DNA from: an uncultured delta proteobacterium
GTDB taxonomy: Bacteria > Desulfobacterota > Syntrophobacteria > Syntrophobacterales > Syntrophobacteraceae
Length of the DNA: 41,146 nt
Direction: 5' to 3'
Assembly: GCA_963808625.1 (NCBI GenBank)
Contig: CAWEHK010000016.1
Span: 1-41,146, forward strand
Every line of letters starts with the position of its first letter. Position 1 is the stretch's first letter. A program made the position numbers and the translations under genes. The notes under the pieces were generated by a model, which was given only the letters and a program-made list of their open reading frames with translations, did not search any database and was not told the origin of the DNA. Positions 5,904 to 23,501 of this stretch are shown here, piece by piece.

Positions 5904-7004
5904 CTAGAATTTGAATTGAGTCGTGGTTCTCCACGTGGTCATAGCCAAGCGGTAGTCATCGATATGCTCATGCTTGAATTCCAGACCGGTTCTCTCGAAG
6001 AAACGCTCCCAGCCAATGCGGTTGATCCAGTCCCCGATCCGCTCATAGCGGCGGCCACCGGCAGCATAGGCCTCAACGATCTTCTTGATCGTGTCCACCG
6101 TCGTCGGCCAGCGCGGCGGCTCATTGGGAATGAACGGCACTGCCAGCTTGGAGAACATGGGCTGCGAGATCACATTGGAAACCTTGCCGCCCACCCACAG
6201 GGCAATTCCGTCCCCTTCGCCGTCGGCAAGGGGCAGGGCCGGGCACATGGTGTAGCAGTTTCCACAGAACATGCACCGGCTGTTGTTGATCTCAACACTC
6301 TTCAGCTCACCAACCTTTTTGGGCTTGATGGCGGCCGTCGGGCATGCGGCGATGACCAGCGGGATCTCACACACATTCTGCACACGGTCGTTTTCCACGA
6401 GCGGAGGCTTCCGGTGCACACCCAGAATAGCAATGTCCGAACAGTGCACGGCGCCGCACATGTTGAGGCAGCAGGCCAGGGCGATGCGGACCTGGGCGGG
6501 GAGTTTGTGCGACCCGAAGTAATCGAAAAGCTCATCCATTACTGCTTTTACGACGCCGGAGGCATCGATTGCAGGGGTGTGGCAGTGTGCCCAACCCTGG
6601 GTGTGGACGATGTTGGTAACACCGGTGCCCGTTCCGCCAACCGGAAACCAGTTGCCACGGCCCTTGAGGTCATTCAGGAGTGGCTGCAACTTGGCTTTGT
6701 CGCTCACCAGAAATTCGACGTTGTTGCGGGTGGTCCAGCGCAGATAGCCGTCACAATACTTATCGGCGATATCGCACATTTCCCTGATCAGCTCGACACT
6801 GATCAAGCGCGCCGATCCGATACGCACGGAATAGAGCTCCGCTCCGGTTTCCGAAACATGGACCAGGACTCCGGGTTGAAGAATTTCGTGGTACTTCCAT
6901 TTCCCGTAGTTTTCCTTCACCACGGGGGGGAAGAACTTATCGTACTTCGGCGGACCGATATCGGTGATGCGATCTTTCATGAGTTCATTTGGATCAAAAG
7001 CCAT
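5904..7004 (-). CDS. dsrB: Dissimilatory sulfite reductase beta subunit
   Basis: [61 protein letters not shown]. Confidence 0.99.
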
Positions 7005-7015
7005 CGTTTTATCTC

Positions 7016-8290
7016 CTAAGCTTGGTGTCGTTCACGGTAAGCTTTGCCGTCATGTTCCCAACCACCGGGGACTTCCGCGGGATCGTAGAAGATGTAGGGA
7101 TTGTAGCGTGGAGTATTGACCATGCGTGGATCGGGAGTGAGCTCGCAGGCCTTCAGGAACTCACGGAGACCGATGCGTTGAATCATCTCACCCAGGCGCT
7201 CCCGGTTCTTTCCTTCTTCCATCCAGAGGTCCCACATTTTTTCCACAAATTCCTTGAACTCGGTATAGGGTGGTTCCATCTTCAGGAACGGAATGACCAC
7301 GCTGGAAAGCTGCGCCCCTTCGAGGATAGGTGCCTTCGCGCCAACAAGAATGGTGGCCCCGGTGTCTAAGCCCGGTCGCAAAGCTCGTGGCATGACTCGG
7401 ATACAATGCATACAGCGCGTGCAGTCCTCATCCCAGATCTTGAGGCTCTTACCATCCCATTCCATGCACTTAGTCGGGCACAAATCGATGACTTCAGCCT
7501 TGATGTCGAAAGCTTCTCTCTTGGCGCTCTGAGCCCCGGCGTGCGGGACGAACTCGCCGCCCACGTAGGCTCGCACCGCTTCCTGGTCGATGCGGACATT
7601 GTCTCGCCAGGTCCCGATGATAGAGCAGTCGGAACGTGCAATGGCCGCCACACAGTCGCACGGACAACCGGATGATTTGAACTTGAACTTATAAGGAAAC
7701 ATCGGGCGGTGGAGGGCATCTTGATACTCTTGGGTGAGATTATAAATGATATCTTGAGTATCAATACAGGACCATTCACAGCGTGCCTTGCCGATGCAAC
7801 CCTCCGGAGTTCTTAGATTGGAGCCCGAACCGCCCAGATCCATCTCCAGTTCATGAGTCAGTTCATAGAAAATGGGTTCCAGTTGGTCCGTGGTGGTCCC
7901 TAAAAGGACGATGTCACCCGTGGACCCATGCATATTGGTGAGTCCGCTGCCTCGCGCTTCCCAGATGTCGCAGAGTTTGCGCAATACTTCAGAATTGTAG
8001 AACTTGCTCGCGGGCTGATTCACACGCATGGTATGGAAATGCGCCACATTGGGAAAAAGGTCCGGGCGGTCGCAGTAACGGCCGATAACGCCTCCACCAT
8101 ACCCGAAGACACCCACAATACCGCCATGCTTCCAATGTCCTTCCTTGTCCCGGAAGGACATTTCCATCAGACCCAGCCAGTCTTCGCACACGGTTTTCTT
8201 CTGTGCCATTCTCTTGACATCGGTCACAAAACTGGGCCAAGGCCCCTTTTCCAATTCATCAAGCATAGGAGTCGCATGCTTTTGTGTCAT
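7016..8290 (-). CDS. dsrA: Dissimilatory sulfite reductase alpha subunit
   Basis: [58 protein letters not shown]. Start placed at 8290 (GGAGG 8 nt upstream) rather than 8305. Confidence 0.99.
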
Positions 8291-8522
8291 TCCATAAACC
8301 TCCATAGGCCAATTTCTTGCTTTTGGGTTACCAGGATTTACGCTGGTCTCTTAGACAGGGACTTGCACAAGCTTTTTGACTTCACCTCCTTTTTCCATGG
8401 TGTAAAAATCCAGCCCGGAATAATCCTCATTAAATGCGCATTGGTCGAAGTGCAGAATGATCAGAGATCAGACGGAGATCATGGCAGGGAGCAGGGAGCG
8501 GGAACCTCGGCAGGCTTGAATA

Positions 8523-8759
8523 CTAGTTCATGCCTTTTTCTTCTTTGGTAACATCATCCTCTGAGGGGAGCATGTACATGGTCGTGCTACCACTCGACCA
8601 ATACTTCAATTTGCCTTCGTTGACCAGTTCGTTGATGACCTTCTTCGCTTGCATCATCTTGATTTCAGGAACAGCCTTGCACAAGTCGTTGAAGTAGTGC
8701 TTGGTCTTCTTCTGCTGTTTAACCCATTCAATAATACGCTGTTTAGCCTCCTCACTCAT
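8523..8759 (-). CDS. dsrD: DsrD (winged-helix DsrAB activator)
   Basis: 78 aa: KTKHYFNDL...KKVINELVNEGKLKYWSSGSTTMY signature; GGAGG RBS. Confidence 0.95.
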   Translation of the reverse strand: MSEEAKQRIIEWVKQQKKTKHYFNDLCKAVPEIKMMQAKKVINELVNEGKLKYWSSGSTTMYMLPSEDDVTKEEKGMN

Positions 8760-8998
8760 GGTAACCTCCTCTGGAGAATTCACTATACGTTAAGGCAAAA
8801 TGGTCTTGCACCTTGTAAAACCTTGAAAAATTTTACCTGCGGTAAGATTCAGAGACTTCCATTAAAGCCTTCTCAAATCTTTGTCAATAGAAAAGTCCCG
8901 TAATAATTCTTGAGAAAACGATCACATAACCCGGGCCATCAACCTTGCCCGGCCTTGACACCATTCCTTGGCATGGTTAAGAAGCACTGCTTTGATGT

Positions 8999-9934: not shown

Positions 9935-10069
9935 AGCGGATCAGGCAGCGCTTCCCATTCGGCCCCTCCAAAACCTTTTGCCTTCTTTTGTCTGCGCGCG
10001 TTTAAATAGGGCTTGAGAGCGTCACCTGACTCATCCGGTTTTGTTCTTTATTACGGAGGAGGAACCACC

Positions 10070-10762
10070 ATGGTAAATGGCACAACCTCGGCGGCCCAGG
10101 CGCTTGTGGAGACCATCCACGATGTGCTGTCCGGTGTCGAACAACAGATTCGCCGGCACGCGTATCTGCAAGCCCTCGAGGAGGGCAGCATTGCGCCCGC
10201 CCGGCTGCGATGCTTTGTTGGCGAGCAGTGCCACATCATCCCCGGGGATTTGCGCAGCATTGCGCTTCTTATCTCGCGCTGTGAACAGCCGGCCGGTCAG
10301 CAGTTCTTTCGCGATGTGCTGCAAGGCGAAGCGGCGGCGCTGGACGGCCTGGAGGTGTTGGCCGCGGCGGTGGGGATGTCGCCGGCCGCTTGTGCGGAAT
10401 ACGAGCCGGCGCCCGGCGCCCAGGCTTACAGCGCCTACCTGGCCTATTTATGTCTCTACGGCACCGACGCCGAAGTTGCCGCCGCCTTGTCGGTAAACTT
10501 TGCTGCCTGGGGGGCCAATTGCGGCCGTATGGCGCAGGCCTTGCGCCAGCGCTATGACATGCAGGAGGCCGACTTGCGGTTCTTCACCCAGTTCGCCGCG
10601 GCGCCGCCCGAGGTCAGCCCGCAGGCCCTGGCACTGATCAGCGCCGGCCTGCAAAGGGGCGTTGAGCCCCACCGCATCGTGCGGGCTGCCAGGATGCTCC
10701 AGGGGTATGAACTGCTGTTTTGGGACACGGTCTATGCCCTGAGCACGGCCGCGGTGGAATGA
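10070..10762 (+). CDS. TenA/PqqC (heme-oxygenase-like) family protein without the catalytic Cys (TenA_E-like)
   Basis: HAYLQALEEG...FVGEQ..I..DLRS, AQAYSAYL, VNFAAWG, YELLFWD. GGAGGAGG RBS before ATG 10070. Confidence 0.75.
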   Translation: MVNGTTSAAQALVETIHDVLSGVEQQIRRHAYLQALEEGSIAPARLRCFVGEQCHIIPGDLRSIALLISRCEQPAGQQFFRDVLQGEAAALDGLEVLAAAVGMSPAACAEYEPAPGAQAYSAYLAYLCLYGTDAEVAAALSVNFAAWGANCGRMAQALRQRYDMQEADLRFFTQFAAAPPEVSPQALALISAGLQRGVEPHRIVRAARMLQGYELLFWDTVYALSTAAVE

Positions 10763-10787
10763 CCACCGTCGCCAAAGGAGGATCACC

Positions 10788-11453
10788 ATGGCAGCATTTT
10801 CCGAGACACTCTGGCAGGGCGTTGCGGGTATCTATGACCGCATTCTGGCACATCCCTTTCTGACGGGGCTCACCGACGGCACCCTGGCGGAGGACGCCTT
10901 TCGGTTCTATGCCATTCAGGACGCACTATACCTTCGGGACTTCGCCCGTGGACTGGCGCTGCTGGCGGCCAAGTCGCCCACCGACGACGCCATGATCATG
11001 TTCAGCGACCACGCCAAAACCGCGATTGTCGTGGAGCGTGCGCTGCACGCAAGCTTCTTTGCCCAGTGGGGCCTTGCGCCCGAGGACGTTTATGCCACGC
11101 CACCGGCCCCGAACAACCTGCTCTACACCTCCTATTTGCTGCGCATTGCCTACGAGCGCCCGTTTCACGAAGGGCTGGGCGCCTTCCTGCCGTGCTATTG
11201 GATTTATTGGGAGGTGGGAAAGGAGCTTGAAAAGCGCGGCTCGCCGATATCCGTCTACCAGCGCTGGATCGACACCTATGCCAGCACCGAGTTTGGCGAC
11301 ACGGTGCAGCAGGTCATCGCCCTGGCAAACCGCGTCGCCGAGACGCTGACGCCGGAAGACAAGGCACAGGTGGCAGTCCACTTCGAGATGACTTCCCGGT
11401 TTGAATACCTCTTCTGGGACATGGGTTACCGTCGGCAGGCGTGGGAGGTATGA
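10788..11453 (+). CDS. tenA: Thiaminase II / aminopyrimidine aminohydrolase (TenA_C)
   Basis: HPFL..L.DGTL...FRFYAIQDALYL, LPCYWIYWEVG (catalytic Cys), YQRWIDTY, EYLFWDM. Confidence 0.9.
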   Translation: MAAFSETLWQGVAGIYDRILAHPFLTGLTDGTLAEDAFRFYAIQDALYLRDFARGLALLAAKSPTDDAMIMFSDHAKTAIVVERALHASFFAQWGLAPEDVYATPPAPNNLLYTSYLLRIAYERPFHEGLGAFLPCYWIYWEVGKELEKRGSPISVYQRWIDTYASTEFGDTVQQVIALANRVAETLTPEDKAQVAVHFEMTSRFEYLFWDMGYRRQAWEV

Positions 11454-11738: not shown

Positions 11739-12028
11739 TCAGGAGCAGCAGGCCTTGCCTGATCCTTTGACATTCCGCTCCCTGAGCCATTCATTGATGA
11801 GCCCGGAAGCACAGCCGACCCCGGCGTCAACGGTAATGACCGCAAGAGGGCAGTTCCTGGCGCAGGCGCCGCACTCCATACAGGCATCGCGGTCAACGAT
11901 GCGGGCCCGCTTTGCTGCAAGCTCGAAGACCTGGTGCGGACAGACCTCCACGCACCGGCCGCACCCGGCGCAGCCGTCCGGGCGAGCTCAAGAGTCGTTA
12001 CATCCTTGAGATAACGGAACCCTCTCAT
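11739..12028 (-). CDS. hgcB: Mercury methylation ferredoxin HgcB; frameshift near 11984
   Basis: MRGFRYLKDVTTLEL, then a shifted frame with CAGCGRCVEVCPH...CMECGACARNCP...V.AGVGCA...CCS. Lies directly downstream of hgcA; AAGGAG RBS. Confidence 0.93.
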
Positions 12029-12087
12029 CGATTCTCCTTATACTTTAGTGTTCCTTAGTATGCTCGTTTAGGCTGAAAATCTTCAGT

Positions 12088-12175
12088 TTTACCAGCGGAG
12101 AGCGCAGAGTGCGCAGAGAGATTTTGCTCTGAAATGCTTTGATTCCTCTGCGATCTCAGCGTGCTCTGCGGTTAA
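12088..12175. repeat. Palindromic element built from 9-nt CGCAGAG-type units, between hgcA and hgcB
   Basis: GCGGAGAGCGCAGAGTGCGCAGAG...CTCTGCGATCTCAGCGTGCTCTGCGG; related to 35156-35225 and about 27690-27718. Confidence 0.7.
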
Positions 12176-12235
12176 TTCCGGTCCACCAAGATGAACCTTT
12201 TCATCTTTAACGTTATAGCCAGCAGGTCGATAGGG

Positions 12236-13393
12236 TCACAGGAATTTTCCCACCACGACCAGCAGGAGGCTGACCACCAGAGCGCACCCCATGGCCGGAA
12301 TGGCAACCCGCATCTCCTTCTTTACCCCGGAACGGGAGGTAAAGGTGGTGCAGCCGGTGAAGTTGAGCGTGTAGAAAGCGCTCACTGCCGGCAGCGCGAG
12401 GAAGGCGGCGATGGTTACCGGGATGCTCCAGGCGCTGCCGCCGGCAAGCAAGTACCAGGCGGTGCTCCAGACCAGCCCGGCGATGGCGCCCTTGACGGAA
12501 AAACTCCTTCCCGGAAGCCAGGGAAGGAGAAGCGGCCCGAGAACGATCCCGGTGAAGACCGCTCCAAGATAGGCGATACTCACCTTTATGCCGGTTGCGA
12601 AACTGCCCAGGAGGGCTCCCAGGATGAACAGGCAAAGCGTGATGACCGCCGTCGATTTCAGGGCCTGGACCATTTCCACCGGGAGCAATACCAGCCGTTC
12701 CCGAAAGGTAAAGGTCATTTCCCGCATTGCCGCAGTGGTCACCAGGCCGTTTTCGAGATATTGCGGCAGGTCTTCGGCCCTGATGGTTGCATAGCTCACC
12801 ACAAAGCCGGTGCGCCGGGCCACCTCGTGGGCCGCCACGCCGGGCGCGCCGAGGATCGGCAGAAGCAGCCGCCGATGGTTTACAACCTTCGCCAGCCCGG
12901 TCGCACCGATCCGCCGAACCAGTTCCTCCGTGCCGAAGCTTCCCTTCCCGGCCGCGCACCAGACGTTGATGCCGAAGGTCTCCAGCACCAAAAGCCAGGC
13001 ATTGCGCCCGGCCATGACTTTCCGGACGATGTCGTAGCTCATCTTGTAGTTGGCGGTGACCACCACCGGGTCGTCCGGCGTGGGATGGCCGAGGGCATAG
13101 AGACCAGGGGGGACAATGTAGCTCATGCGGCCGATCCCCCAGCGTGCCTTGCAGGCGCCCAGGCGGTCGTTCAGGTCGAGTTTCGTCGATACCCGCGGGA
13201 CCGGTCCTGCTCCGGTCGTCAACCACTCCTGGAAACCGGGGACCTTTTCGTCTATTTTCCCGCCTCCGGTCGTGGCCGGCGGTCCGCAACAAGGGGGCTT
13301 GTCCGGGTTATCATGAGGAGGAGGGCCGCAACGTCCGGACAAGACCGCTTTCTTGTCCGCATCCGAGAGCTTTCTGATATCCATCAGTTCCAT
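12236..13393 (-). CDS. hgcA: Mercury methylation corrinoid protein HgcA
   Basis: PGLYALG, VTANYKMSYD, cap-helix motif GINVWCAAGKGSFG, then a hydrophobic C-terminal membrane domain ending NFTGCTTFTSRSGVKKEM. Start at 13393 (GGAG RBS). Confidence 0.97.
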   Translation of the reverse strand: MELMDIRKLSDADKKAVLSGRCGPPPHDNPDKPPCCGPPATTGGGKIDEKVPGFQEWLTTGAGPVPRVSTKLDLNDRLGACKARWGIGRMSYIVPPGLYALGHPTPDDPVVVTANYKMSYDIVRKVMAGRNAWLLVLETFGINVWCAAGKGSFGTEELVRRIGATGLAKVVNHRRLLLPILGAPGVAAHEVARRTGFVVSYATIRAEDLPQYLENGLVTTAAMREMTFTFRERLVLLPVEMVQALKSTAVITLCLFILGALLGSFATGIKVSIAYLGAVFTGIVLGPLLLPWLPGRSFSVKGAIAGLVWSTAWYLLAGGSAWSIPVTIAAFLALPAVSAFYTLNFTGCTTFTSRSGVKKEMRVAIPAMGCALVVSLLLVVVGKFL

Positions 13394-13412
13394 AGAATTT
13401 CTCCATCCCCAT

Positions 13413-13880
13413 TTACTTGCAACACGCAATATTTTTGCCGGGACGTGTGCAACAGCCCGACCTGGCCGCCGCCTCGTTCAAAAGTCCCAGCGACTTGACG
13501 ACGGTCTCCCGCTCGAAGGGAGTCATGGGCGCGAAGATCTGTTCCAGTTTTGCCGCCATATAGCGGTCGATCTGTTCCAACATCCGCAGTCCCTCGTCGG
13601 TCAGCCCCAACAGGCTCACGCGGCGATCATCCGGCCGCACCTGCCGCACGATAAGCCCCTTGCCCTCGAGGCTCTTGGCCTGCCGGCTGAAGGTGGTGAC
13701 ATCCATGCCCAATTCCTCCGCCACCCGCTGCATGGGGGGGTTGCCGTTTCTCCGGATTTCGTAGAGGATGTGGCTCTGGGCCATAGAAATTTGTTCTCCG
13801 CAACATTCGTCGCAGCACGATGCATTCAGCAGCCCAAAACGGCGCACGAATATCTGCAGCGCTTCCCTAACCGATTCCAT
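13413..13880 (-). CDS. Cysteine-rich MarR-family transcriptional regulator
   Basis: Q.HILYEI...VAEELGMDVTTFSRQAKSLEGKGLI.R....DRR...L.LTDEG winged helix. Also CCDECC and C-terminal GCC...ACCK. AGGAGG RBS before ATG 13880. Confidence 0.92.
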   Translation of the reverse strand: MESVREALQIFVRRFGLLNASCCDECCGEQISMAQSHILYEIRRNGNPPMQRVAEELGMDVTTFSRQAKSLEGKGLIVRQVRPDDRRVSLLGLTDEGLRMLEQIDRYMAAKLEQIFAPMTPFERETVVKSLGLLNEAAARSGCCTRPGKNIACCK

Positions 13881-13912
13881 GGCGTTCCTCCTTAGAGCCT
13901 TCGTATCATTTC

Positions 13913-13931
13913 TATTTGCATTATGCAAGTA
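13913..13931. promoter_or_regulatory. Palindromic candidate MarR operator upstream of marR-hgcA-hgcB
   Basis: TATTTGCATTATGCAAGTA (core TTGCAT-T-ATGCAA), 33-51 nt upstream of the marR ATG. Confidence 0.6.
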
Positions 13932-14091: not shown

Positions 14092-14565
14092 ATGAGATGG
14101 ATTACCCGCGAACGTGTCAAAGTGGATCGCGTGGCCTGTCCATGGCTGATCAAGAGGTATGTGGACAAGGATGCGGAATTTTATTTCGTCGCTGCCGATC
14201 AGGTAATGCGCGAAGCAGAGCGGCTGGGGGCGATTCCTTTCGACGTGCCGGATGTGGAGCTGGGACATCACGGCAAGACCTGTTCCTTCGAAGCGATTCT
14301 TCAAAAGTACCAACTGGATAGTGACCCGGTGCTGCTCTTGCTGGGCAGGATTGTCAATGGGGCGGACACGGACAATTCTCTTTACCAGCAGCCCGAAGGA
14401 CCGGGATTGAAGGCCATCGCCGAAGGTTTTCGTCATCTGGGATTCAAGGATGATCATGAAATCAATGCCGCAGAATGGATTGTCTATGACGCATTGCACG
14501 CATACTGCAGGGAAATGGTAAAAGAAGGAAAACTCGAAGCTTGGCATGAGCGGTTTAAAAAATAG
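14092..14565 (+). CDS. Chromate-resistance ChrB C-terminal-domain protein (ChrF-like)
   Basis: MRWITRERVKVDRVACPWLIKRYVD..AEF.FV...GAIPFD...HHGKTCSFEAIL...IVNGAD...YDALHAYC. Confidence 0.85.
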   Translation: MRWITRERVKVDRVACPWLIKRYVDKDAEFYFVAADQVMREAERLGAIPFDVPDVELGHHGKTCSFEAILQKYQLDSDPVLLLLGRIVNGADTDNSLYQQPEGPGLKAIAEGFRHLGFKDDHEINAAEWIVYDALHAYCREMVKEGKLEAWHERFKK

Positions 14566-15637: not shown

Positions 15638-15939
15638 TGGTCTTGATTTCCAGGGGGCCGGGTATAAACTTTCGCCTTTCAGACGGGGAAGTCTTCATTG
15701 CATGTTCTTTCGAGGACGGATGCTTTGGCAGTATATTCTCTTCCGACAATTAACCTTACCGGCCGTTCACGCCCATAACAATCTACAGGCTTTTGGCCGA
15801 TAATCATTGAATTGCTTGAACATTTTGTTTCTCTCAGGGCCTTTAACCACCTCGGTAGTTGAGTGCAGACGGTAATGGGCTTCCGCTGAGCAAGATCTGC
15901 ATTGTATTTATGTACCACATATGATACAGGATGAGGACG

Positions 15940-16275
15940 ATGGACTGGACGATCGAATACTACAGTGAAGCAGTACAGCAAGAAATCATGTCCCTGCCTG
16001 CAGGGATTCAGGCCAGGTACATTCATTATACGAAACGGATGTTGATCCATGGCCCCAATCTTGGTATCCCCCATACGAATGCAATGGGTGACGGTCTTTT
16101 TGAGCTTCGAATGAAGGCAGCTGAAGGGATAGGCAGGGTCTTTTACTGTACTCTCATTGAGCAAAGAATCGTCATGCTTCACACTTTCGTTAAGAAGACT
16201 CAGAAGACACCGGCCAGAGAACTGGCTGTTGCGAGGAAAAGGATGAAGGAGGTAAAAGTCAATGCTCAGCCATGA
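15940..16275 (+). CDS. RelE/HigB-like (Gp49/DUF891) type II toxin
   Basis: WTIEYY...GPNLGIPHT..MGDGLFELRMK..EGIGRVFY.....IVMLHTFVKKTQKTP. Confidence 0.9.
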   Translation: MDWTIEYYSEAVQQEIMSLPAGIQARYIHYTKRMLIHGPNLGIPHTNAMGDGLFELRMKAAEGIGRVFYCTLIEQRIVMLHTFVKKTQKTPARELAVARKRMKEVKVNAQP

Positions 16276-16552
16276 GGAAATGGTAGGCAAGATGCTGCAA
16301 CATCCTGAGGTTAAGGCCGAATACGATGCCCTTGAGCCGGAGTTTGAACTTCTGGATGAACTATTGAAAGCGAGGGATGAAGCAGGACTTACTCAAGAGG
16401 ATGTCGCAAAACGCATGGGCACATCCAGACCTGCAGTAGCTCGGATAGAGGCAGGGGGAGGCAGCAAGAGGCACTCACCATCCATAGCCACACTTCGCAA
16501 ATACGCAGAGGCGGTCGGATGCAAGTTACAGGTTAAGTTTGTTCGTAAATAG
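16262..16552 (+). CDS. XRE-family HTH antitoxin (HigA-like)
   Basis: EVKAEYDALEPEF...AR.EAGLTQ..VA.RMGTSR.AVARIE...PS..TL.KYA.A. Overlaps the toxin 3' end in toxin-first order. Confidence 0.9.
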   Translation: MLSHEEMVGKMLQHPEVKAEYDALEPEFELLDELLKARDEAGLTQEDVAKRMGTSRPAVARIEAGGGSKRHSPSIATLRKYAEAVGCKLQVKFVRK

Positions 16553-17113: not shown

Positions 17114-18274
17114 TCAGAGCTCTCCTTTGAAGGCGCGGTCGAGGATTGCGGGGAGGAGGGCGTTGAGCTCTGTGGCGGTCTCGGCTTGCAACTGTTTCAA
17201 CGCGTCAACCTGCACCTGCAGCCCTTCCAGATACGCCACGATCCGGCGTTGCTCCGAAATTGGCGGCAGAGGAACCTGCCACCGAAGAAGGTCTCCCTCG
17301 CGAATGTAGGGATAGAAATTAGGGTCTGCGAGATGATCATCCAAATAACGAGTCACCTGTTGGCCTAGCCATGCGGAAAGAAAGCTCTGTTCAAGTCCAT
17401 CCTTTGCTCGAAGCATCACGGCGTTCTGGTTCAAGACCGCTGGAGGACCGGCCCATTGACACATGGCACCAGTTGAGAAGGAAGTCTTCGCAAGGATAAT
17501 GTCACCAGGCTCAAGCCACACATTTGCGTAGTTGCCAGGGTTTTGAAGATAGACGGTAGGTTGTTTCGTACCGATCTCCTTCAATCTGACCACGGGCACC
17601 TCGCCTGAATCGACAAAATCCTCCGCTTTATACGCAATCCCAGTCTTCTTCTCCGCCACCTCAGCAAGTGTTTTCCGGCGATAACCCATTGCCTCAAAGA
17701 TATTTGTCATGGTTCTCGGGAGAATCTTTTCTGTCTCTTCGGTTGCTTGGCAGCGGAGGGCGCTGGCTTCGGAGATTTTGGCGGCCAGTTCGTCGATCCG
17801 CGCCACGATCCGCCGCTGCTCCTCCAATGGCGGCAGGGGGATTTCGAGGGCAAGGAACGTTGCAACCGAGACGGTTTCGCGTCGTGCTCCAATGCCGCGC
17901 GAGTTCTGCTGTAGCTCTGCCCACACGATTCCACGCCTGCAAAACCATTCGAGAAAAGTTGGCTCCAGTCGCGACCGGTTGGCACGAAGCGTTGGGAACA
18001 CGGGAGAAAGATACCAGCCATCAAACTCTGCTGTGACTCGCGCTATGGCGCCTTCCCAAGCTTTCGGTTGGCTGATTACGTAGTCGTCAGCCACCAGCAT
18101 GTTGTAGGTCTTGTAGATGGTCTCGGCGGGTGAAATCGGGCCTCGCGCGAACAATCCGCGTCCGAAGCTGTAAACCCCTGCCAAGTTGATCTCGGCCAAT
18201 TGCTTACACGGCGTTGCCGTGCTCGACAGCGCCATCACCTCGCCCAACCGCACCCTAGGCCAATCCTTACTCAT
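17114..18274 (-). CDS. hsdS: Type I R-M specificity subunit
   Basis: W..VRLGEV start, two conserved repeats (IPLPPLEEQRRIVARID and VPLPPISEQRRIVAYLE), C-terminal ILDRAFKGEL. Confidence 0.95.
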   Translation of the reverse strand: MSKDWPRVRLGEVMALSSTATPCKQLAEINLAGVYSFGRGLFARGPISPAETIYKTYNMLVADDYVISQPKAWEGAIARVTAEFDGWYLSPVFPTLRANRSRLEPTFLEWFCRRGIVWAELQQNSRGIGARRETVSVATFLALEIPLPPLEEQRRIVARIDELAAKISEASALRCQATEETEKILPRTMTNIFEAMGYRRKTLAEVAEKKTGIAYKAEDFVDSGEVPVVRLKEIGTKQPTVYLQNPGNYANVWLEPGDIILAKTSFSTGAMCQWAGPPAVLNQNAVMLRAKDGLEQSFLSAWLGQQVTRYLDDHLADPNFYPYIREGDLLRWQVPLPPISEQRRIVAYLEGLQVQVDALKQLQAETATELNALLPAILDRAFKGEL

Positions 18275-18463
18275 AGGTTCCTCTTGTTAATGAGGTTCAC
18301 AATGCCCCCCGCCAGGATGTTTTTGTCCTGGGGACGGTCTTCGGCCATGAGCAACGTCACAGCCACCAACGCGTTGCCAACGGAATATCTGGTTCCGTCC
18401 GCAGATGTGGAGATGCTGGGACGCGGCCGTCGGTGCACCATTTGAAATCTCGAGAACGGTGTT

Positions 18464-19247
18464 GGGCGGGGATAAACCCCGCCCCTCCGCACTGGTGGAA
18501 CTCAGGGTATCCCGCAATCGGAGTCAATGGGCGTGAAGCCTGACTTCGATAGTAAAGCTTCGATATCTGGACTGGTACGGATACGCTTTTGCGTTTGCCT
18601 TGAAAAGGTGTTTGGGAAATCGGCAGAATCCCCGTGAACAAATGTAGGGGAGGGGTTTATCCCCTCCCGCGACCCACGATGAGCAAACGCCGATTCGAAT
18701 TGCTTCACGTCTCTACCCTCCCACCGACTGATCGACAAATTCCCTCCAATTGCCCCACACCAGAGAACCAGACCATGGATAGGCAGAAGCGCAATCGACT
18801 ATTCCCGCGCGAACAGGGTTATGCCAGATGTAGCGCGCAACATCGCCCAATGCCTCTTCTTTTCGTAGCGCATGGTCATAAAAACTCCGCTGCCACAACG
18901 CCCGTCCTTTTTCCAGACGACGGGCCTCCGGTGTCAGCTTCCCTTTGAGCAGACGGACAAAATCAACAATATTATTGTCCTGCAAAAGCAGGTGAACGTG
19001 ATTCGGCATGATGCACCATGCAAAAAGAAGGGTTTCGCATTCCCCAGCTATCTTACAGAGCAAATGAGTGGGCCCATCTGCGAGTTCAGGGTGCAATCGA
19101 AACCACGGATGTTTTTCATGTGTCGCGATGGTTATGGAGAAAGCATTACCCTTTTGGTAGCTGTCGGGTAATAAGCGAATTGCTTTTCGGGTCGGCAATT
19201 TTTCCGTCATGCGGGCTCCTTCGGGCGGGGATAAACCCCGCCCCTAC
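18464..19247. repeat. Three GTAG-class REP palindromes flanking the RAYT (consensus GTAGGGGCGGGGTTTATCCCCGCCC)
   Basis: Copies at 18464-18489 (reverse), 18644-18668 (forward) and 19223-19247 (reverse). Confidence 0.9.
18713..19210 (-). mobile_element. REP-associated tyrosine transposase (RAYT/TnpA-REP, Y1 HUH)
   Basis: FSITIAT, AWCIMPNHVHLL (HUH), LWQRSFYDH, YIWHNPVRAG, YPWS. Flanked by REPs; no tnpB. Confidence 0.9.
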
Positions 19248-19605
19248 GTGCTCTGATCTTCCCGCTGCTGACGGGAATGCCCCAGTTGCATTTCAGCAAG
19301 TAGCCAGTAGGAATGGAGACATGTGGGCCACAATAAAGTGACGGCATTATCCTGATTTGCAATGTGCAAATTATACACATTGCATTCATGAACTACCGAG
19401 CATTTCTCGGAGGTTGGGGCCTCAACCATTTTGGTTCCCTTGTAATTGTTGCGCAAGTGCAGGCAAAACTTTACCGTCCATGGCAAACTGTACATTAGTT
19501 ACATGGGTGGAGAATGAACTCGCCCGCTACAAGCTGTGCATTTTTTGCACAGGTAGATAACGATCTCGCCGTCTGTCGCTTCATCCGTTCGCAGCGTCTT
19601 ACCGT

Positions 19606-21141
19606 TCATGGCGTGTCCCTCAGCATGGCCTTAATTTCCGCCATCAACTCAACAATGCGCTGCTCTTTTTGCAGGATGTCGTCAGCAAGCCGTTCCGGAG
19701 GGAGATGTTCAAAATCCTCCCTGCCCCTTGGGTTCTTGCGGTCGAGATTGCAGCTGCCATCCAGCAATTCCAGAGCATTCACTTTCCAGGCGCGGTCGTT
19801 CTCCTCCCGCTTTTTCCACCATTCCATGCACGCGCGGAACTCCTCGAACTGAAGGGCCATGGTTTTTGTGTAGTTTTTCCGGCCTTCGGGGAGCGGGTGC
19901 TCGTAGTACCAGACGTCCCCAGTCGGCCCGGAGCGGTCGAAGAAGAGAACATTCGTTGGGATGCTGGTATACGGAGCGAAAACACCGTTCGGCAGGCGGA
20001 CAATGGTGTGGAGGTTGAACTCCTTGAGCAGTTCCTCCTTGATGCGGGCGCAGATGCCGTCGCCGAAAAGCGCGCCGTTGGGCACGACGACGGCGGCGCG
20101 GCCCGGTTTGGGCGGCCGCCGCAGTTTGCGCATGATGAGCTGAAGGAAAAGCAGCGCAGTTTCCGCCGTTTTCTTGTCGTCCGGGAAATTGCCGAGAATG
20201 CCGCGTTCTTCCTCGCCGCCGAAGGGTGGGTTGGTGAGGATGATGTCCACGCGGTCCTTGTCGCCGATCTCGCGGAGCGGGAAGCGAAGGGCGTTGAGCG
20301 GGTCGATGTTGGGCGCCTCCGCCCCGTGGAGGAGGAGGTTCATCTGGCAGAGGAGATAAGGCAGCGACTTGGCTTCGACGCCGAAGAGGGTGTCGCGCTG
20401 GAGGCGGCGGTGATCTTCGGTGGTCTTGCACTGTTTCTTGAGGTGCTCGAAGGATTCCACGAGAAAGCCGCCGGTGCCGCAGGCGGGATCGAGCACGGTT
20501 TCACCGAGGCGCGGGTTGACCACGGCGACGATGAACTTCACCAGCGGGCGCGGGGTGTAGAACTCGCCGGAGTCGCCCGCCGCATCGCGCATCTCCTTGA
20601 GCATGGACTCGTAGAGGTGCCCGAGAGTGGAAATCTCTTCCGAGGATGTGAAGTGGATGGAGTGAATCTTGTTGACCACGTCGCGAAGCAGGTAGCCATT
20701 GAGCATCCGGTTAACGGTGCCGGTGAAGACGGCGCGGATAACATCGCGGCGGTCTCCGCCGTTGGTGCCGGTGAGGGACCGCAGATAGGCGAAGAGGCCC
20801 GGTCCTTTGGACCCGTCCGGGCGGGTGGCTTCGTCGTTCTGAATGAAGGCGACGAGGGCGTCGCCGGTGATGCCGTCGGCCTGGGCGGCCCAGTCGCGCC
20901 AGCGATAAGGCGGCTCGATGGCGGGTCGGAAGCGCTTTCCTCCCAACGCGGCCTCGGCCTCCCGTACCTGCTCCATGTCGTCGAGGAACTTGAGGAACAT
21001 CACCCATGTGAGCATGGGCAGCCGGTCAAGGTCACCATTGAGGCCCTTGTCCTTCCGCATGATGTCGCGGCAGGACTTGACGAGGCTGCCGAGGGATTGA
21101 GCTGTGGTCGTCGGTGCAGGGGTTCTTTTCATTCTTGCCAT
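19606..21141 (-). CDS. hsdM: Type I R-M N6-adenine methyltransferase
   Basis: DIMRKDKGLNGD, GEFYTPR, DPACGTGGF (motif I), NPPFGG (motif IV), IVRLP.GVF.PYT. Start is uncertain (21132-21150). Confidence 0.96.
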   Translation of the reverse strand: MARMKRTPAPTTTAQSLGSLVKSCRDIMRKDKGLNGDLDRLPMLTWVMFLKFLDDMEQVREAEAALGGKRFRPAIEPPYRWRDWAAQADGITGDALVAFIQNDEATRPDGSKGPGLFAYLRSLTGTNGGDRRDVIRAVFTGTVNRMLNGYLLRDVVNKIHSIHFTSSEEISTLGHLYESMLKEMRDAAGDSGEFYTPRPLVKFIVAVVNPRLGETVLDPACGTGGFLVESFEHLKKQCKTTEDHRRLQRDTLFGVEAKSLPYLLCQMNLLLHGAEAPNIDPLNALRFPLREIGDKDRVDIILTNPPFGGEEERGILGNFPDDKKTAETALLFLQLIMRKLRRPPKPGRAAVVVPNGALFGDGICARIKEELLKEFNLHTIVRLPNGVFAPYTSIPTNVLFFDRSGPTGDVWYYEHPLPEGRKNYTKTMALQFEEFRACMEWWKKREENDRAWKVNALELLDGSCNLDRKNPRGREDFEHLPPERLADDILQKEQRIVELMAEIKAMLRDTP

Positions 21142-21146
21142 AGGGT

Positions 21147-23501
21147 TCAAGCTGCCTCAGCGTAAAGGAGTGTTTGCATGTTCTCGATTGCGGCGCGGAG
21201 TTGGTCTACGCCACCGAATTTGTTTGCGATCTCCAGCACATTGCCGTGGCTGGAGAGCGGTGCGATCTTCAAAATATCCGGGACCTTGAATTGCGCGGTC
21301 CCGTGTTCGATGTACTTGTCGAGAATCTCGTTCAGGATCTCGCGGGACTCCGGCTTGAAACGCTCCCAAAAGTCCACGCGGCCTTTGCGCAGTCGTTCGG
21401 CCCGCTCGCGGCGGGTGCGCAGGGGTGCGTTGAAGGCGACGTAGCAGAGCAGGTCGAACGGGTCAGCTTCGGGTTGGCCGGTGTTTTCGGCGAGCTGCTC
21501 CAGGGTGATGCCGCGCTCTTCAAGGGCTTCGATAATGGCGGTGCGCTCCTGGGCGTTGCTCCAGCGGGCGCGAAGCTCGGCGGCGGAAGTCCACAGCTTG
21601 CGCACCTTCTCGGAGGCATAGTCAGTGTATTTGACAACGCTAAGTTGCTTGCCGTCGGAGTCGAGTTCGTAGACCACATGCGCAGCGATGGCGACCAAAC
21701 CTCCGTCCACGTAGAACTTGCGGGGAGGCGGTTCAGAAGCTTCCAACGGCTCTCCGGAAGGATCGCCCACCTCGGGATAGACGATGCCTTCCGGGAGAAC
21801 TTCCGGCTCGGGGATCGGCTCGTCAAGAGAGGTTTCCGTGGGCAGATCGATGGGGTCTCCGTCGAACTCCGGGTCGGCAAAGAGCCGTGTCGCACTACCG
21901 GTGTAGTCCAAAATGGAGAACCAGAGCTTACCATAGTCGGCGCGAACGCGGGTCCCGCGGCCGATGAGCTGTTTGAATTCCGTCATCGAGTTGATGATAC
22001 GAACGATGGCAATGTTCTTACAGGTGGGAGCGTCAACGCCGGTCGTCAGCAGTTTCGAAGTGGTCAAAACGACTGGTGTCGCGCGTTCGAGTTCCTGAAA
22101 ACGGCTCAGGTGGCCTCGCCCAATGTCGCCTTCGTCGGCAGTGACGCGGGCAACGTAATCGGGGTGTTTCTGCGCCAGATCGGAGGAGTAGTTGTTGATC
22201 GCCTGGCGCATTTCATCGGCGTGTTCCTGGTCTACACAGAAGACCATGGTTTTGGCGTAGGGGTCGGAGCGTTTCAAGAAATCAACGATGCTCTTGGCGA
22301 TCGCCTGCGTGCGAGCCTTGAGCGCGACGAGGCGTTCGAAGTCCGGGGTCTGGTAATCCTCGTCAGGGATGGCGCGGCCATAGCGGTCCAGTTCGTCTTT
22401 GGACGGCCGCCAACCGGTCGCATCGACATCGGTGACGATGCGATGGACGCGGTAAGGCGCCAGGAAACCGTCGTCGATGCCCTGCCGCAGGCTGTAAGTG
22501 TAAACCGGGTTGCCAAAGTAGGCGTAGGTGTCACGGTTGTCTTGGCGGAGCGGGGTGGCCGTCATGCCGAACTGATAGGCGGGCTGGAAGTAGGTGAGGA
22601 TTTCGCGCCAGTTGCTTTCCTCACGAGCACTGCCCCGGTGGCACTCATCGACAATGATCAGATCGAAGAACTCCGGGCTGTAGTCACGGTAAAGACCGGG
22701 CCGGTGTTCGTCTTTAGCAATGGCCTGGTAGGTGGCAAAGTACATTTCACGGCTCTTGACGGCTTCGCCCTGGATCTTCCAGCGGGCATCCCCGAAAGGC
22801 GCAAACTGCTTGTCCTTGGGGTCATCGACCAGGATCGAACGGTCGGACAGGAAAAGGATGCGGGGACGGCGCGGTTTGTCGGCGCGGTTCCAGCGGGTGC
22901 TCCAGAGTTTCCATCAAAGGTGAAAGGCAATGTCGGTTTTTCCCGTACCGGTTGCCATGTTGACCAGGACGCGGCGCTGCCCGCTGAGGATGGCGCGGAT
23001 GATGCGGTTGATGGCAATTTCCTGGTAGTAGCGAAGCGGCTTTCCTGGTACGGGCAAGCTGGGTGAGAGGAACCGCTGTTCCTGCTCGTCACCCTTCAGC
23101 CCGATATCGGGTTGGAGACGTTTCCAGAGATCGTCGGGCGAAGGAAACGCATCGAGATTGGTTTCCTTACCGGTGAGGAAGTCGTGCTCCACAATACCAT
23201 GCCCGTTCGTCGCGTAGGCAAACTTCAGGTCCAGAATCTGCGCGTATTCCTTAGCCTGCTGCAGACCATCGCCGGGATTCTTGTGTGAGGCCTTAGCTTC
23301 AATCACAGCGAGCATCAGGTTGGGCCGGTAGCGCAGGAGATAATCGGCTCGTTTTTGTGGACGTCGCCAGACCTTGGTACCCGCGACCATGATACGCCCA
23401 TCGGTAAAGGTCCGCTGTTCGCTGATCTGGTCATCGTCCCAGCCAGCCTCGTAGAGCTTCGGCAAAACGTACTTTCGACAGGTATCAGCTTCAGTTGCCA
23501 T
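21147..23501 (-). CDS. hsdR: Type I restriction endonuclease subunit (EcoEI/EcoAI-like) with an in-frame TGA at 22914-22916
   Basis: ADY...VIEAK nuclease motif, MATGTGKT, DECHRG, GMTATP, QLIGRGTR. ORFs 22914..23501 and 21147..22745 are in the same frame and joined by 56 open codons after the TGA. Confidence 0.92.

What the first reader, a model, noticed from the sequence alone, without database searches (positions are those of the whole stretch)
11739..13931. Candidate metal(loid)-sensing control system for Hg methylation: octa-Cys MarR, operator and hgcAB
Seen: marR ends 19 nt before hgcA on the same strand. The MarR has four vicinal Cys pairs (ASCCDECCG, SGCC, IACCK), and a near-perfect palindrome TATTTGCATTATGCAAGTA overlaps its likely -35 region. 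Known: the characterised hgcAB regulator is ArsR-like and arsenic-responsive, and MarR repressors typically bind such palindromes at their own promoter. Inferred: this is an alternative autoregulated thiol sensor for Hg(II), As(III) or another soft metal that controls methylation. All three proteins carry Cys-Cys pairs. This is the best candidate for an undescribed system in the window.
Basis: partly seen in the sequence, partly recalled or inferred. Interest (0 to 1): 0.82.

Follow-up and report, generated by a model that had tools for sequence, protein, structure and literature searches.

The report
Arsenic-type double-operator switch on hgcAB
A cysteine-rich repressor gene sits in front of the mercury-methylation genes hgcA and hgcB with two copies of a conserved DNA palindrome, one over the likely promoter and one spelled by the repressor's own last codons; its relatives use the same layout in front of arsenic-defence genes, so arsenic-like metalloids likely switch these methylmercury genes on.

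Summary
Observation confirmed: marR (four Cys-Cys pairs) ends 19 nt before hgcA, and the palindrome (O1) is the best such site in the genome and covers the likely -35 box. The cassette recurs: 62 of 63 Geobacterales genomes with this MarR have it directly before hgcA. The nearest outside relatives, in Bacillota, carry the same operator and head arsenic-defence genes (arsM, arsN, arsI, arsP/arsV-like), so this works like MarR_ars, and As(III)/MAs(III)/Sb(III) is likelier than Hg as inducer (untested). New here: a second operator (O2) lies after marR in Bacillota, but in the hgc clade it is overprinted on marR's last codons and spells the fourth 'Cys pair' (IACCK). In 22 of 58 loci it also holds the hgcA start codon. 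So 'octa-Cys' overstates the sensor. Corrections: hgcB is frameshifted here, probably an assembly error (24 of 83 orthologues are too). MarR before hgcA was already noted in one sentence for Geobacter daltonii, and this scan found the arsenic-type reading before on other DNA; O2 was not found in those notes. Verdict: new variant of a known kind.

The parts
13913..13931 (.). Operator O1 (TA-N-TTGCA-N3-TGCAA-N-TA type), overlapping the likely -35 box
   Evidence: Matrix score 31.0, best in the 4.8-Mb genome, next best 19.6; conserved in 37 of 40 upstream regions
13900..13928 (-). Likely sigma-70 promoter: -35 TTGCAT (13928-13923), 17 nt, weak -10 TACGAA (13905-13900) with an extended TG
   Evidence: In 37 relatives the hexamer at this spacing has T, A and T in 29, 31 and 30; several relatives lack a Shine-Dalgarno site and have the box 35-38 nt before the ATG, as for leaderless mRNA. 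Not found by the consensus scan
13887..13892 (-). Shine-Dalgarno AGGAGG of marR
13413..13880 (-). marR, MarR_ars-type repressor, 155 aa. CCxxCC (C22, C23, C26, C27) at the end of helix 1; C143/C144 just after helix 6; C153/C154 in a disordered tail
   Evidence: C22/23/26/27 invariant in 120 of 120 close homologues; C143 87, C144 90, C153 102, C154 112 of 120
13414..13432 (.). Operator O2, overprinted on the last marR codons (I-A-C-C-K-stop), about 499 bp from O1 and 20 nt before the hgcA ATG; weak in this genome
   Evidence: Score 10.7 here, the lowest of 40 such tails, with 19 sites as good genome-wide. Score 12 or more in 50 of 58 hgc-clade loci and 66 of 69 Bacillota-type loci, against 0 of 1149 background windows
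12236..13393 (-). hgcA, 385 aa, with the cap-helix motif NVWCAAGKG and the Cys form (PCCGP) of the N-terminal extension that is PCUGP in many homologues
   Evidence: extension described in 10.1101/2022.07.06.499078
12059..12212 (.). REP/MITE-like repeat inserted between hgcA and hgcB, about 43 places in the genome
   Evidence: absent at this place in three relatives
11739..12028 (-). hgcB ferredoxin with two CxxCxxCxxxCP motifs and a C-terminal CC; one-base frameshift at about codon 16 (near 11984), likely an assembly error
   Evidence: In frame in 33 of 33 relatives; 24 of 83 orthologues are frameshifted in this assembly

Best explanation
The MarR dimer likely represses a marR-hgcA-hgcB operon by binding two copies of the same palindrome, and is likely released when a trivalent metalloid (As(III), methylarsenite or Sb(III)) binds its cysteines. 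Shown: the gene order, both sites, their conservation, and the same two-site layout in Bacillota in front of arsenic-defence genes. Inferred: O1 blocks RNA polymerase at the -35 box and sets a basal, autoregulated marR level. O2, about 500 bp downstream at the marR/target junction, acts as a roadblock or looping partner that keeps hgcAB lower than marR until induction; it has no -10 box at the right spacing in the loci inspected, so it is probably not a second promoter. Inferred: the ligand site is the CCxxCC at the helix 1-2 junction plus a C-terminal Cys, as in AdMarR_ars (Cys36, Cys37, Cys157). Inferred history: an arsenic-island marR-O1/O2 cassette was placed before hgcAB, and marR's frame extended over O2, so that TTGCA-TGT-TGCAA-GTAA reads as I-A-C-C-K-stop; in many Geobacterales the ATG inside O2 also became the hgcA start.
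For: Linkage: hgcA directly downstream in 36 of 39 close loci. In an unbiased order-wide search, 63 of 239 genomes have this MarR, all 63 are among the 176 with hgcA, and 62 are adjacent: 55 by coordinates, 6 by fetching, 1 via L020. Specificity: O1 score 20 or more in 30 of 30 marR-positive loci (partly the training set) against 1 of 48 marR-negative hgcA upstream regions. Arsenic link: 9 of 11 plasmid regions opened carry annotated ars genes, with marR heading arsM, arsN, a permease or a flavin oxidoreductase. In 63 distinct metagenome relatives, 57 of 62 have O1, the next gene is arsenic-type in 47 of 55 (9 of 12 for those with CCxxCC), and none has hgcA. Tree: the hgc clade (SH-aLRT 96) sits in a clade (100) with six Bacillota ars-island MarRs. 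A homologue with AdMarR's RDRICC context (paper primers) aligns to C26/C27. O2: 66 of 69 Bacillota-type loci and 50 of 58 hgc loci. Tail codons are ATT 30/31 against 53/269 in the gene body, GCA 39/42 against 76/429, and TAA 42/42; the observed tail score averages 18.8 against a synonymous null of 0.5 +/- 6.4. The DNA site survives where the peptide is lost (L008, L024, L029, L030, L065). The unrelated ArsR2 of ND132 also ties hgcAB to arsenic.
Against: No binding, ligand or transcript data. No ars gene lies in this window; the genome's ars cluster is on contig C49 with its own ArsR and no O1-grade site. Ars genes are no more frequent near marR-hgcA (12 of 39) than near marR-negative hgcA (13 of 48), so that proximity is not MarR-specific. 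The arsP-, arsV- and arsO-like labels are mine, from similarity to plasmid genes that fall below the NCBIfam cut-offs; only 13 of 55 next genes are arsM, arsN or arsI. AdMarR_ars itself was not in the tree, which is a quick tree with long-branch outgroups inside the large clade. One paralogue with O1 heads a MerB-like gene. In this genome the -10 box and O2 are weak and hgcB is broken. All counts are on related genomes and overstate independence.
Confidence: 0.64

Rival explanations
1. Same repressor and operators, but the hgc clade has been retuned to sense Hg(II) or methylmercury, using its extra cysteines.
For: The regulated gene is hgcA in 62 of 63 genomes. CCxxCC is invariant in 120 of 120 homologues. 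One paralogue with O1 (L007/L191) heads a MerB-family gene that reads open with two UGA as Sec (PF03243, E 1.4e-18). Vicinal thiols bind Hg(II) tightly (general chemistry, recalled).
Against: CCxxCC also occurs in 66 of 119 Bacillota-type homologues, and those head arsenic-type genes in 9 of 12 cases. The operator is unchanged between the groups. The fourth pair is largely DNA-determined. Two other hgc-clade paralogues sit beside arsD, one of them also beside arsA. MerB-like selenoproteins may act on other organometallics. No MerB match in this genome (a search with no positive control).
Confidence: 0.1
2. A broad thiol-stress sensor (Cu, Zn, Cd, oxidants, electrophiles) with no particular arsenic preference; hgcAB is induced as part of general thiol stress.
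For: Six to eight Cys exceed the three needed for As(III). Paralogues head thioredoxin, DsbD/CcdA and AhpD-like genes. Cys-based Cu sensing is known for E. coli MarR.
Against: The nearest outside relatives are almost confined to arsenic contexts: a core ars gene lies in 51 of 55 loci. Thioredoxin and CcdA genes also occur inside the ars clusters here. This genome has one strong site only, so there is no broad regulon.
Confidence: 0.16
3. The cassette works in relatives but is decaying in this organism, with an hgcB pseudogene and weakened control sites.
For: hgcB frameshift, a repeat inserted between hgcA and hgcB, weak -10 box, and the lowest O2 score of 40 tails.
Against: Frameshifts hit 24 of 83 orthologues in this assembly, about 0.35 per kb. 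marR and hgcA are intact and 77-86% identical to close relatives. The O2 deviation (GCG) is shared with L001 and L002. O1 scores 31.0.
Confidence: 0.07
4. The IACCK tail is conserved only as protein (a metal-binding pair), and its likeness to the operator is coincidence or shared ancestry.
For: C153 is kept in 102 of 120 homologues, and the spacer TGT is not the A/T-rich spacer of O1. Nineteen of 120 homologues have terminal Cys only.
Against: Extreme synonymous bias. The site persists out of frame or between genes in at least five loci, and a Cys-to-Tyr change gives the best score (L023, 30.4). An intergenic O2 exists in 66 of 69 Bacillota-type loci. TGT is also fixed by the overlapping hgcA ATG in 22-27 of 58 loci. 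The tail is disordered in the model (pLDDT below 50).
Confidence: 0.08

Closest known systems
MarR_ars subfamily; AdMarR_ars of Achromobacter sp. As-55 (10.1101/2021.08.12.456183, whole text read)
   Same: MarR fold; vicinal Cys pair before helix 2 plus a C-terminal Cys; autoregulation; close relatives head arsM, arsN, arsI and arsP/arsV-like genes.
   Different: The target is hgcAB; doubled CCxxCC; two-operator layout with O2 overprinted on marR. The paper's main text gives no operator sequence and does not mention hgcAB. The ligand is untested here.
ArsR2 (DND132_1054) of Pseudodesulfovibrio mercurii ND132 (10.1101/2022.10.17.512643; abstract, section 17 and passages read)
   Same: Cys-rich repressor directly upstream of and co-transcribed with hgcAB, responsive to arsenic.
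   Different: ArsR/SmtB family, not MarR; close homologues reported only in Desulfovibrionaceae; also responds to SAH; no operator terms found in the passages searched.
MarR genes upstream of hgcA in Geobacter daltonii FRC-32 and Dethiobacter alkaliphilus (PMC10349881; passages and supplement rows read)
   Same: The G. daltonii protein is by eye an orthologue with all four Cys pairs and the VACCK end; the Dethiobacter protein is a CC...CC MarR.
   Different: [quoted passage not shown]
arsR-(arsC)-acr3-hgcA arrangements (PMC7438021, PMC11984097; passages read)
   Same: hgcAB placed in an arsenic-regulated context; seen here too in about 11 of 48 marR-negative Geobacterales loci (counted by eye).
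   Different: Uses an ArsR and lacks the MarR operator.
Transcriptional roadblock and auxiliary operators such as LacI (PMC4132739, PMC10310618; search listing only, rest recalled)
   Same: A second operator downstream of the promoter, inside transcribed and coding DNA.
   Different: Here it lies at the repressor/target junction, is written into the repressor's own C-terminus, and often holds the next gene's start codon.

Membership tests
MarR_ars | MarR winged-helix fold | tested here: met
   PF01047 E 1.5e-12; model pLDDT 87.6; top Foldseek hits are MexR and MarR structures
MarR_ars | Vicinal Cys pair equivalent to Cys36/Cys37 | tested here: met
   By proxy: P0272 carries the RDRICC context read from the paper's primers and aligns to C26/C27
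MarR_ars | C-terminal Cys equivalent to Cys157 | tested here: inconclusive
   C143/C144 lie 116-117 residues after C27, against 120 in AdMarR; they align with the terminal CC of ars-island relatives. The AdMarR sequence itself was not obtained
MarR_ars | Falls in the clade of ars-operon MarRs | tested here: inconclusive
   Groups with six Bacillota ars-island MarRs (SH-aLRT 100), but this is a quick tree with long-branch intruders and without the founder
MarR_ars | Located in an arsenic-resistance operon or island | tested here: not met
   Not in this genome; met for 12 of 39 close loci and 51 of 55 Bacillota-type loci
MarR_ars | Binds its own promoter and is released by As(III)/Sb(III) | not testable with these tools
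   Only the conserved sites can be shown
ArsR2-type hgcAB regulator | ArsR/SmtB (PF01022) domain with the four-Cys site | tested here: not met
   No ArsR family among the Pfam or NCBIfam hits of P0001
MerR-type Hg sensor | MerR domain; long-spacer promoter with the dyad between -35 and -10 (recalled) | tested here: not met
   No MerR hit; the spacer is 17 nt and the dyad overlaps the -35 box
HgcA | NF040863 above cut-off; cap-helix motif | tested here: met
   454.7 bits against 275; NVWCAAGKG
HgcB | NF040864 above cut-off as one open frame; two 4Fe-4S motifs; C-terminal CC | tested here: inconclusive
   Motifs and CC present, but the frame is broken; the C-terminal piece scores 91.3 against 99

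The most novel reading that the evidence does not exclude
HgcAB occupies the slot that ArsM, ArsI, ArsV and ArsP fill behind the same sensor and operators because its selected job is handling trivalent (methyl)arsenicals, with Hg methylation a side reaction. Arsenic would then be a real on-switch for methylmercury genes in about a third of hgcA-bearing Geobacterales. In addition, the repressor has captured its own operator as coding sequence, so one 20-bp stretch is at once operator, Cys-tail and hgcA start, and in lineages that lost C143/C144 the operator-spelled cysteines became the third metalloid ligand.
Probability: 0.2. Interest if true: 0.9.

Novelty: new variant of a known kind. Interest (0 to 1): 0.66.

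Why it matters
What controls hgcAB, and what the genes are for, are open questions. This cassette precedes hgcA in 62 of 176 hgcA-bearing Geobacterales genomes sampled and in some Syntrophobacteraceae and a Nitrospirota MAG, including cultured strains (G. argillaceus, Oryzomonas japonica, and G. daltonii in print). It gives an exact operator, ligand candidates and residues to test. If arsenic-responsive, it is a second, unrelated regulator family linking hgcAB to arsenic, which bears on As/Hg co-contaminated paddies and wetlands; in ND132, though, hgcAB transcript level predicted methylation poorly. The two-operator layout also applies to the wider MarR_ars family, for which the founding paper's main text gives no site.

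Tried and rejected
Homodimer prediction gave no verdict (score 0.28, mark 0.42), so the Cys geometry across subunits is unknown. No public run holds this organism (best share 0.10), so the hgcB frameshift could not be checked on its own reads. In one soil RNA run a 191-nt contig about 95% alike spans the marR/hgcA junction; contigs cannot show a single transcript and DNA carry-over was not excluded, so it is not counted. 'hgcAB replaces arsM': arsM-like matches occur in 13 of 63 marR-positive and 20 of 113 marR-negative hgcA genomes, and only 6 of 239 pass the cut-off (tallied by hand), so no support. Compensation between C143/144 and C153/154: 1 of 120 lacks both, against about 1.3 expected by independence, so no support. 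Wider regulon: none; the second exact core at 19357 scores 17.5 and lies upstream of an IS200-like transposase fragment. Control of the divergent chrB-domain gene: not found near marR in 48 related loci. O2 as an internal promoter: no -10 box at 17 nt in the loci inspected by eye. The sigma-70 scan found no promoter. The ESM Atlas returned only generic MarR clusters. The careful MarR tree did not finish. Cluster names for distant homologues could not be retrieved. Whether the regulator before hgcAB in 112 genomes in PMC7438021 is this MarR is unknown: the word MarR is absent from its main text and its figshare tables were not seen. PMC7862947 and PMC8060452 were irrelevant.
Full report
OBSERVATION. 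The minus strand carries marR (13880-13413, 155 aa), hgcA (13393-12236, 385 aa) and hgcB (12028-11739). The 19-nt gap, the four Cys pairs and the palindrome are as described. HgcA passes the NCBIfam cut-off. The window also holds dsrAB, and the closest loci are Syntrophobacteraceae records. hgcB changes frame at about codon 16 relative to three relatives and is in frame in 33 of 33 related loci. In this assembly 24 of 83 orthologues taken from three same-genus genomes are also frameshifted, 37 events in about 106 kb, so an error is likely (roughly a 10% chance for a gene this size). The organism's own reads were not found.

LINKAGE. Of 39 loci with 54% or more identity, 36 have hgcA directly behind marR. 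Because that search is biased, I searched one whole order (Geobacterales by the named records): 63 of 239 genomes have the MarR and 176 have hgcA. All 63 are on the hgcA list (compared by eye). Adjacency is shown for 55 by coordinates and 6 by fetching, and for one via L020; one is split over two contigs. Four extra paralogues are not beside hgcA. Elsewhere the gene is rare: 6 of 81 genomes in the window's family, counting its own, and 3 of 400 in a phylum-wide draw. In an HgcA tree the window's protein groups with marR-bearing Syntrophobacteraceae inside a clade with Geobacterales, and marR-negative hgcA genes are interleaved. The direction of transfer was not tested.

OPERATOR O1. The core is present with at most one mismatch upstream of 37 of 40 starts, against a shuffle mean of 0.16. 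Its left half is followed at 17 nt by a TAnnnT-like hexamer, and in several relatives the geometry implies a leaderless mRNA, which supports the -35 assignment. A matrix built on these sites scores the window's site 31.0, the best in the genome (next 19.6). It scores 20 or more in 30 of 30 marR-positive order loci (overlapping the training set), but in only 1 of 48 marR-negative hgcA upstream regions; 50 of 113 such genomes were fetched and 2 dropped for short flanks.

WHAT IT SENSES. The best plasmid matches (40-51% identity) are Bacillota MarRs. I opened 11 regions picked from 64-108 records; 9 carry annotated ars genes, with marR heading arsM, arsN, a permease or a flavin oxidoreductase. 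Among 63 distinct proteins from the 80 best of 235 metagenome loci, 57 of 62 have O1, 47 of 55 are followed by an arsenic-type gene (13 of them arsM, arsN or arsI; the rest carry my arsP/arsV/arsO-like labels), and none has hgcA. The CCxxCC motif is not hgc-specific: 66 of 119 Bacillota-type homologues have it. The founding MarR_ars represses its own gene and arsV and is released by As(III) and Sb(III) through Cys36, Cys37 and Cys157. A homologue with its RDRICC context aligns to C26/C27. Against this: no ars gene lies in the window, ars proximity does not differ between marR-positive and marR-negative hgcA loci (12 of 39, 13 of 48), and one paralogue heads a MerB-like gene.

SECOND OPERATOR. 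The last codons of marR form another copy of the site. In 42 tails the codons are ATT 30 of 31 (gene body 53 of 269), GCA 39 of 42 (76 of 429), TGC 42 of 42 and TAA 42 of 42. The mean score is 18.8 against 0.5 +/- 6.4 for synonymous redraws. The site persists where the peptide does not: out of frame in L008 and L029, across or after the stop in L024, L030 and L065. It scores 12 or more in 50 of 58 hgc loci and in none of 1149 windows in the marR and hgcA bodies. In Bacillota-type loci a strong copy lies between marR and the first target gene in 66 of 69. The spacing fits an extension of marR's frame over an ancestral intergenic O2 (inference). In 22 of 58 loci the only ATG for hgcA lies inside O2 with a Shine-Dalgarno site; 5 have both starts, 28 (including this window) start after the stop, and 3 are unclear. 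All 22 lack the C143-region cysteines. The tail is disordered in the model. The window's own O2 is the weakest of 40 (10.7; 19 sites as good genome-wide), with a deviation shared by L001 and L002. These genomes are kin, so the P values overstate.

MECHANISM. Shown: order, sites, conservation and context. Inferred: repression at O1, roadblock or looping at O2, release by trivalent metalloids through CCxxCC plus a C-terminal Cys, and co-transcription. Overall confidence is 0.64; repression through O1 alone about 0.85.

WHAT IS KNOWN. PMC10349881 (passages; supplement rows; 2 of 14 files not searched) notes MarR upstream of hgcA in G. daltonii and Dethiobacter. ArsR-like control is established in ND132 (abstract, section 17 and passages) and noted in PMC7438021 and PMC11984097 (passages). 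The Cys-Cys or Cys-Sec motifs of HgcA and HgcB are family features (section 25 of 10.1101/2022.07.06.499078; PMC11588087 passages). PMC10083202 has no MarR mention. Ten searches showed no paper that ties a MarR_ars-type protein or this operator to hgcAB, or that describes O2. The library lacks most subscription journals, and bioRxiv supplements (including the MarR_ars alignment, Fig. S3) were not seen. This scan's earlier AI notes reached the arsenic-type reading on other genomes (seen after I had stated the same reading); a look-up for the tail-encoded operator found nothing, and none lies near this place.

VERDICT. A real, widespread cassette: a MarR_ars-like module recruited to hgcAB, with a two-operator layout and an overprinted second operator. 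It works like MarR_ars; membership is probable but not fully met, because the ligand is untested, the founder was not in the tree and the locus is not an ars operon. New variant of a known kind; interest 0.66.

Noticed in passing
L007:6528-7238 (= L191): A marR paralogue with O1 heads a MerB-family gene that reads open only with two UGA as selenocysteine at Cys-like positions (PF03243, E 1.4e-18; SaoL model below cut-off), followed by AhpD-like, thioredoxin and CcdA-like genes.
   Followed up: partly
L127, L132, L152-L154, L157, L162-L164, L173, L183: In marR-negative Geobacterales, hgcA often follows acr3 or arsC directly on the same strand (about 11 of 48, counted by eye): a separate route by which hgcAB may come under arsenic control.
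   Followed up: partly
window 12059-12212: A palindromic repeat of about 150 bp with about 43 places in the genome sits between hgcA and hgcB; it could affect hgcB expression.
   Followed up: partly
L066-L071, L204-L286: Bacillota MarR_ars-type operons carry two copies of the operator, flanking marR (66 of 69 have the downstream copy); no site is given in the founding paper's main text.
   Followed up: yes
L005, L009, L021, L026, L035, L036, L037: marR appears leaderless: no Shine-Dalgarno site, and the -35 box lies 35-38 nt before the ATG.
   Followed up: partly
window 14092-14565: Divergent gene with a ChrB C-terminal domain 160 bp from O1; not conserved beside marR in relatives.
   Followed up: partly
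window 5904-8783: dsrA, dsrB and a dsrD-like ORF (label recalled) with a CobB/CobQ-like gene downstream, about 3 kb from hgcB: a sulfite-reducing host.
   Followed up: no
window 17114-23501: Type I restriction-modification genes with an IS200-like fragment between them; hsdR is split in two ORFs, probably another assembly frameshift. An exact operator core at 19357-19369 scores 17.5.
   Followed up: partly
L003, L004, L030, L192: A SigZ-like ECF sigma factor gene lies divergent from marR.
   Followed up: no
L038, L039, L193, L194: hgc-clade marR paralogues without O1, inside arsD-, arsA- or arsP-containing islands; L038 is frameshifted.
   Followed up: partly
window 10013-11453 and 15931-16552: Two tandem TenA-family genes convergent on hgcB; a Gp49/HTH toxin-antitoxin-like pair.
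   Followed up: no
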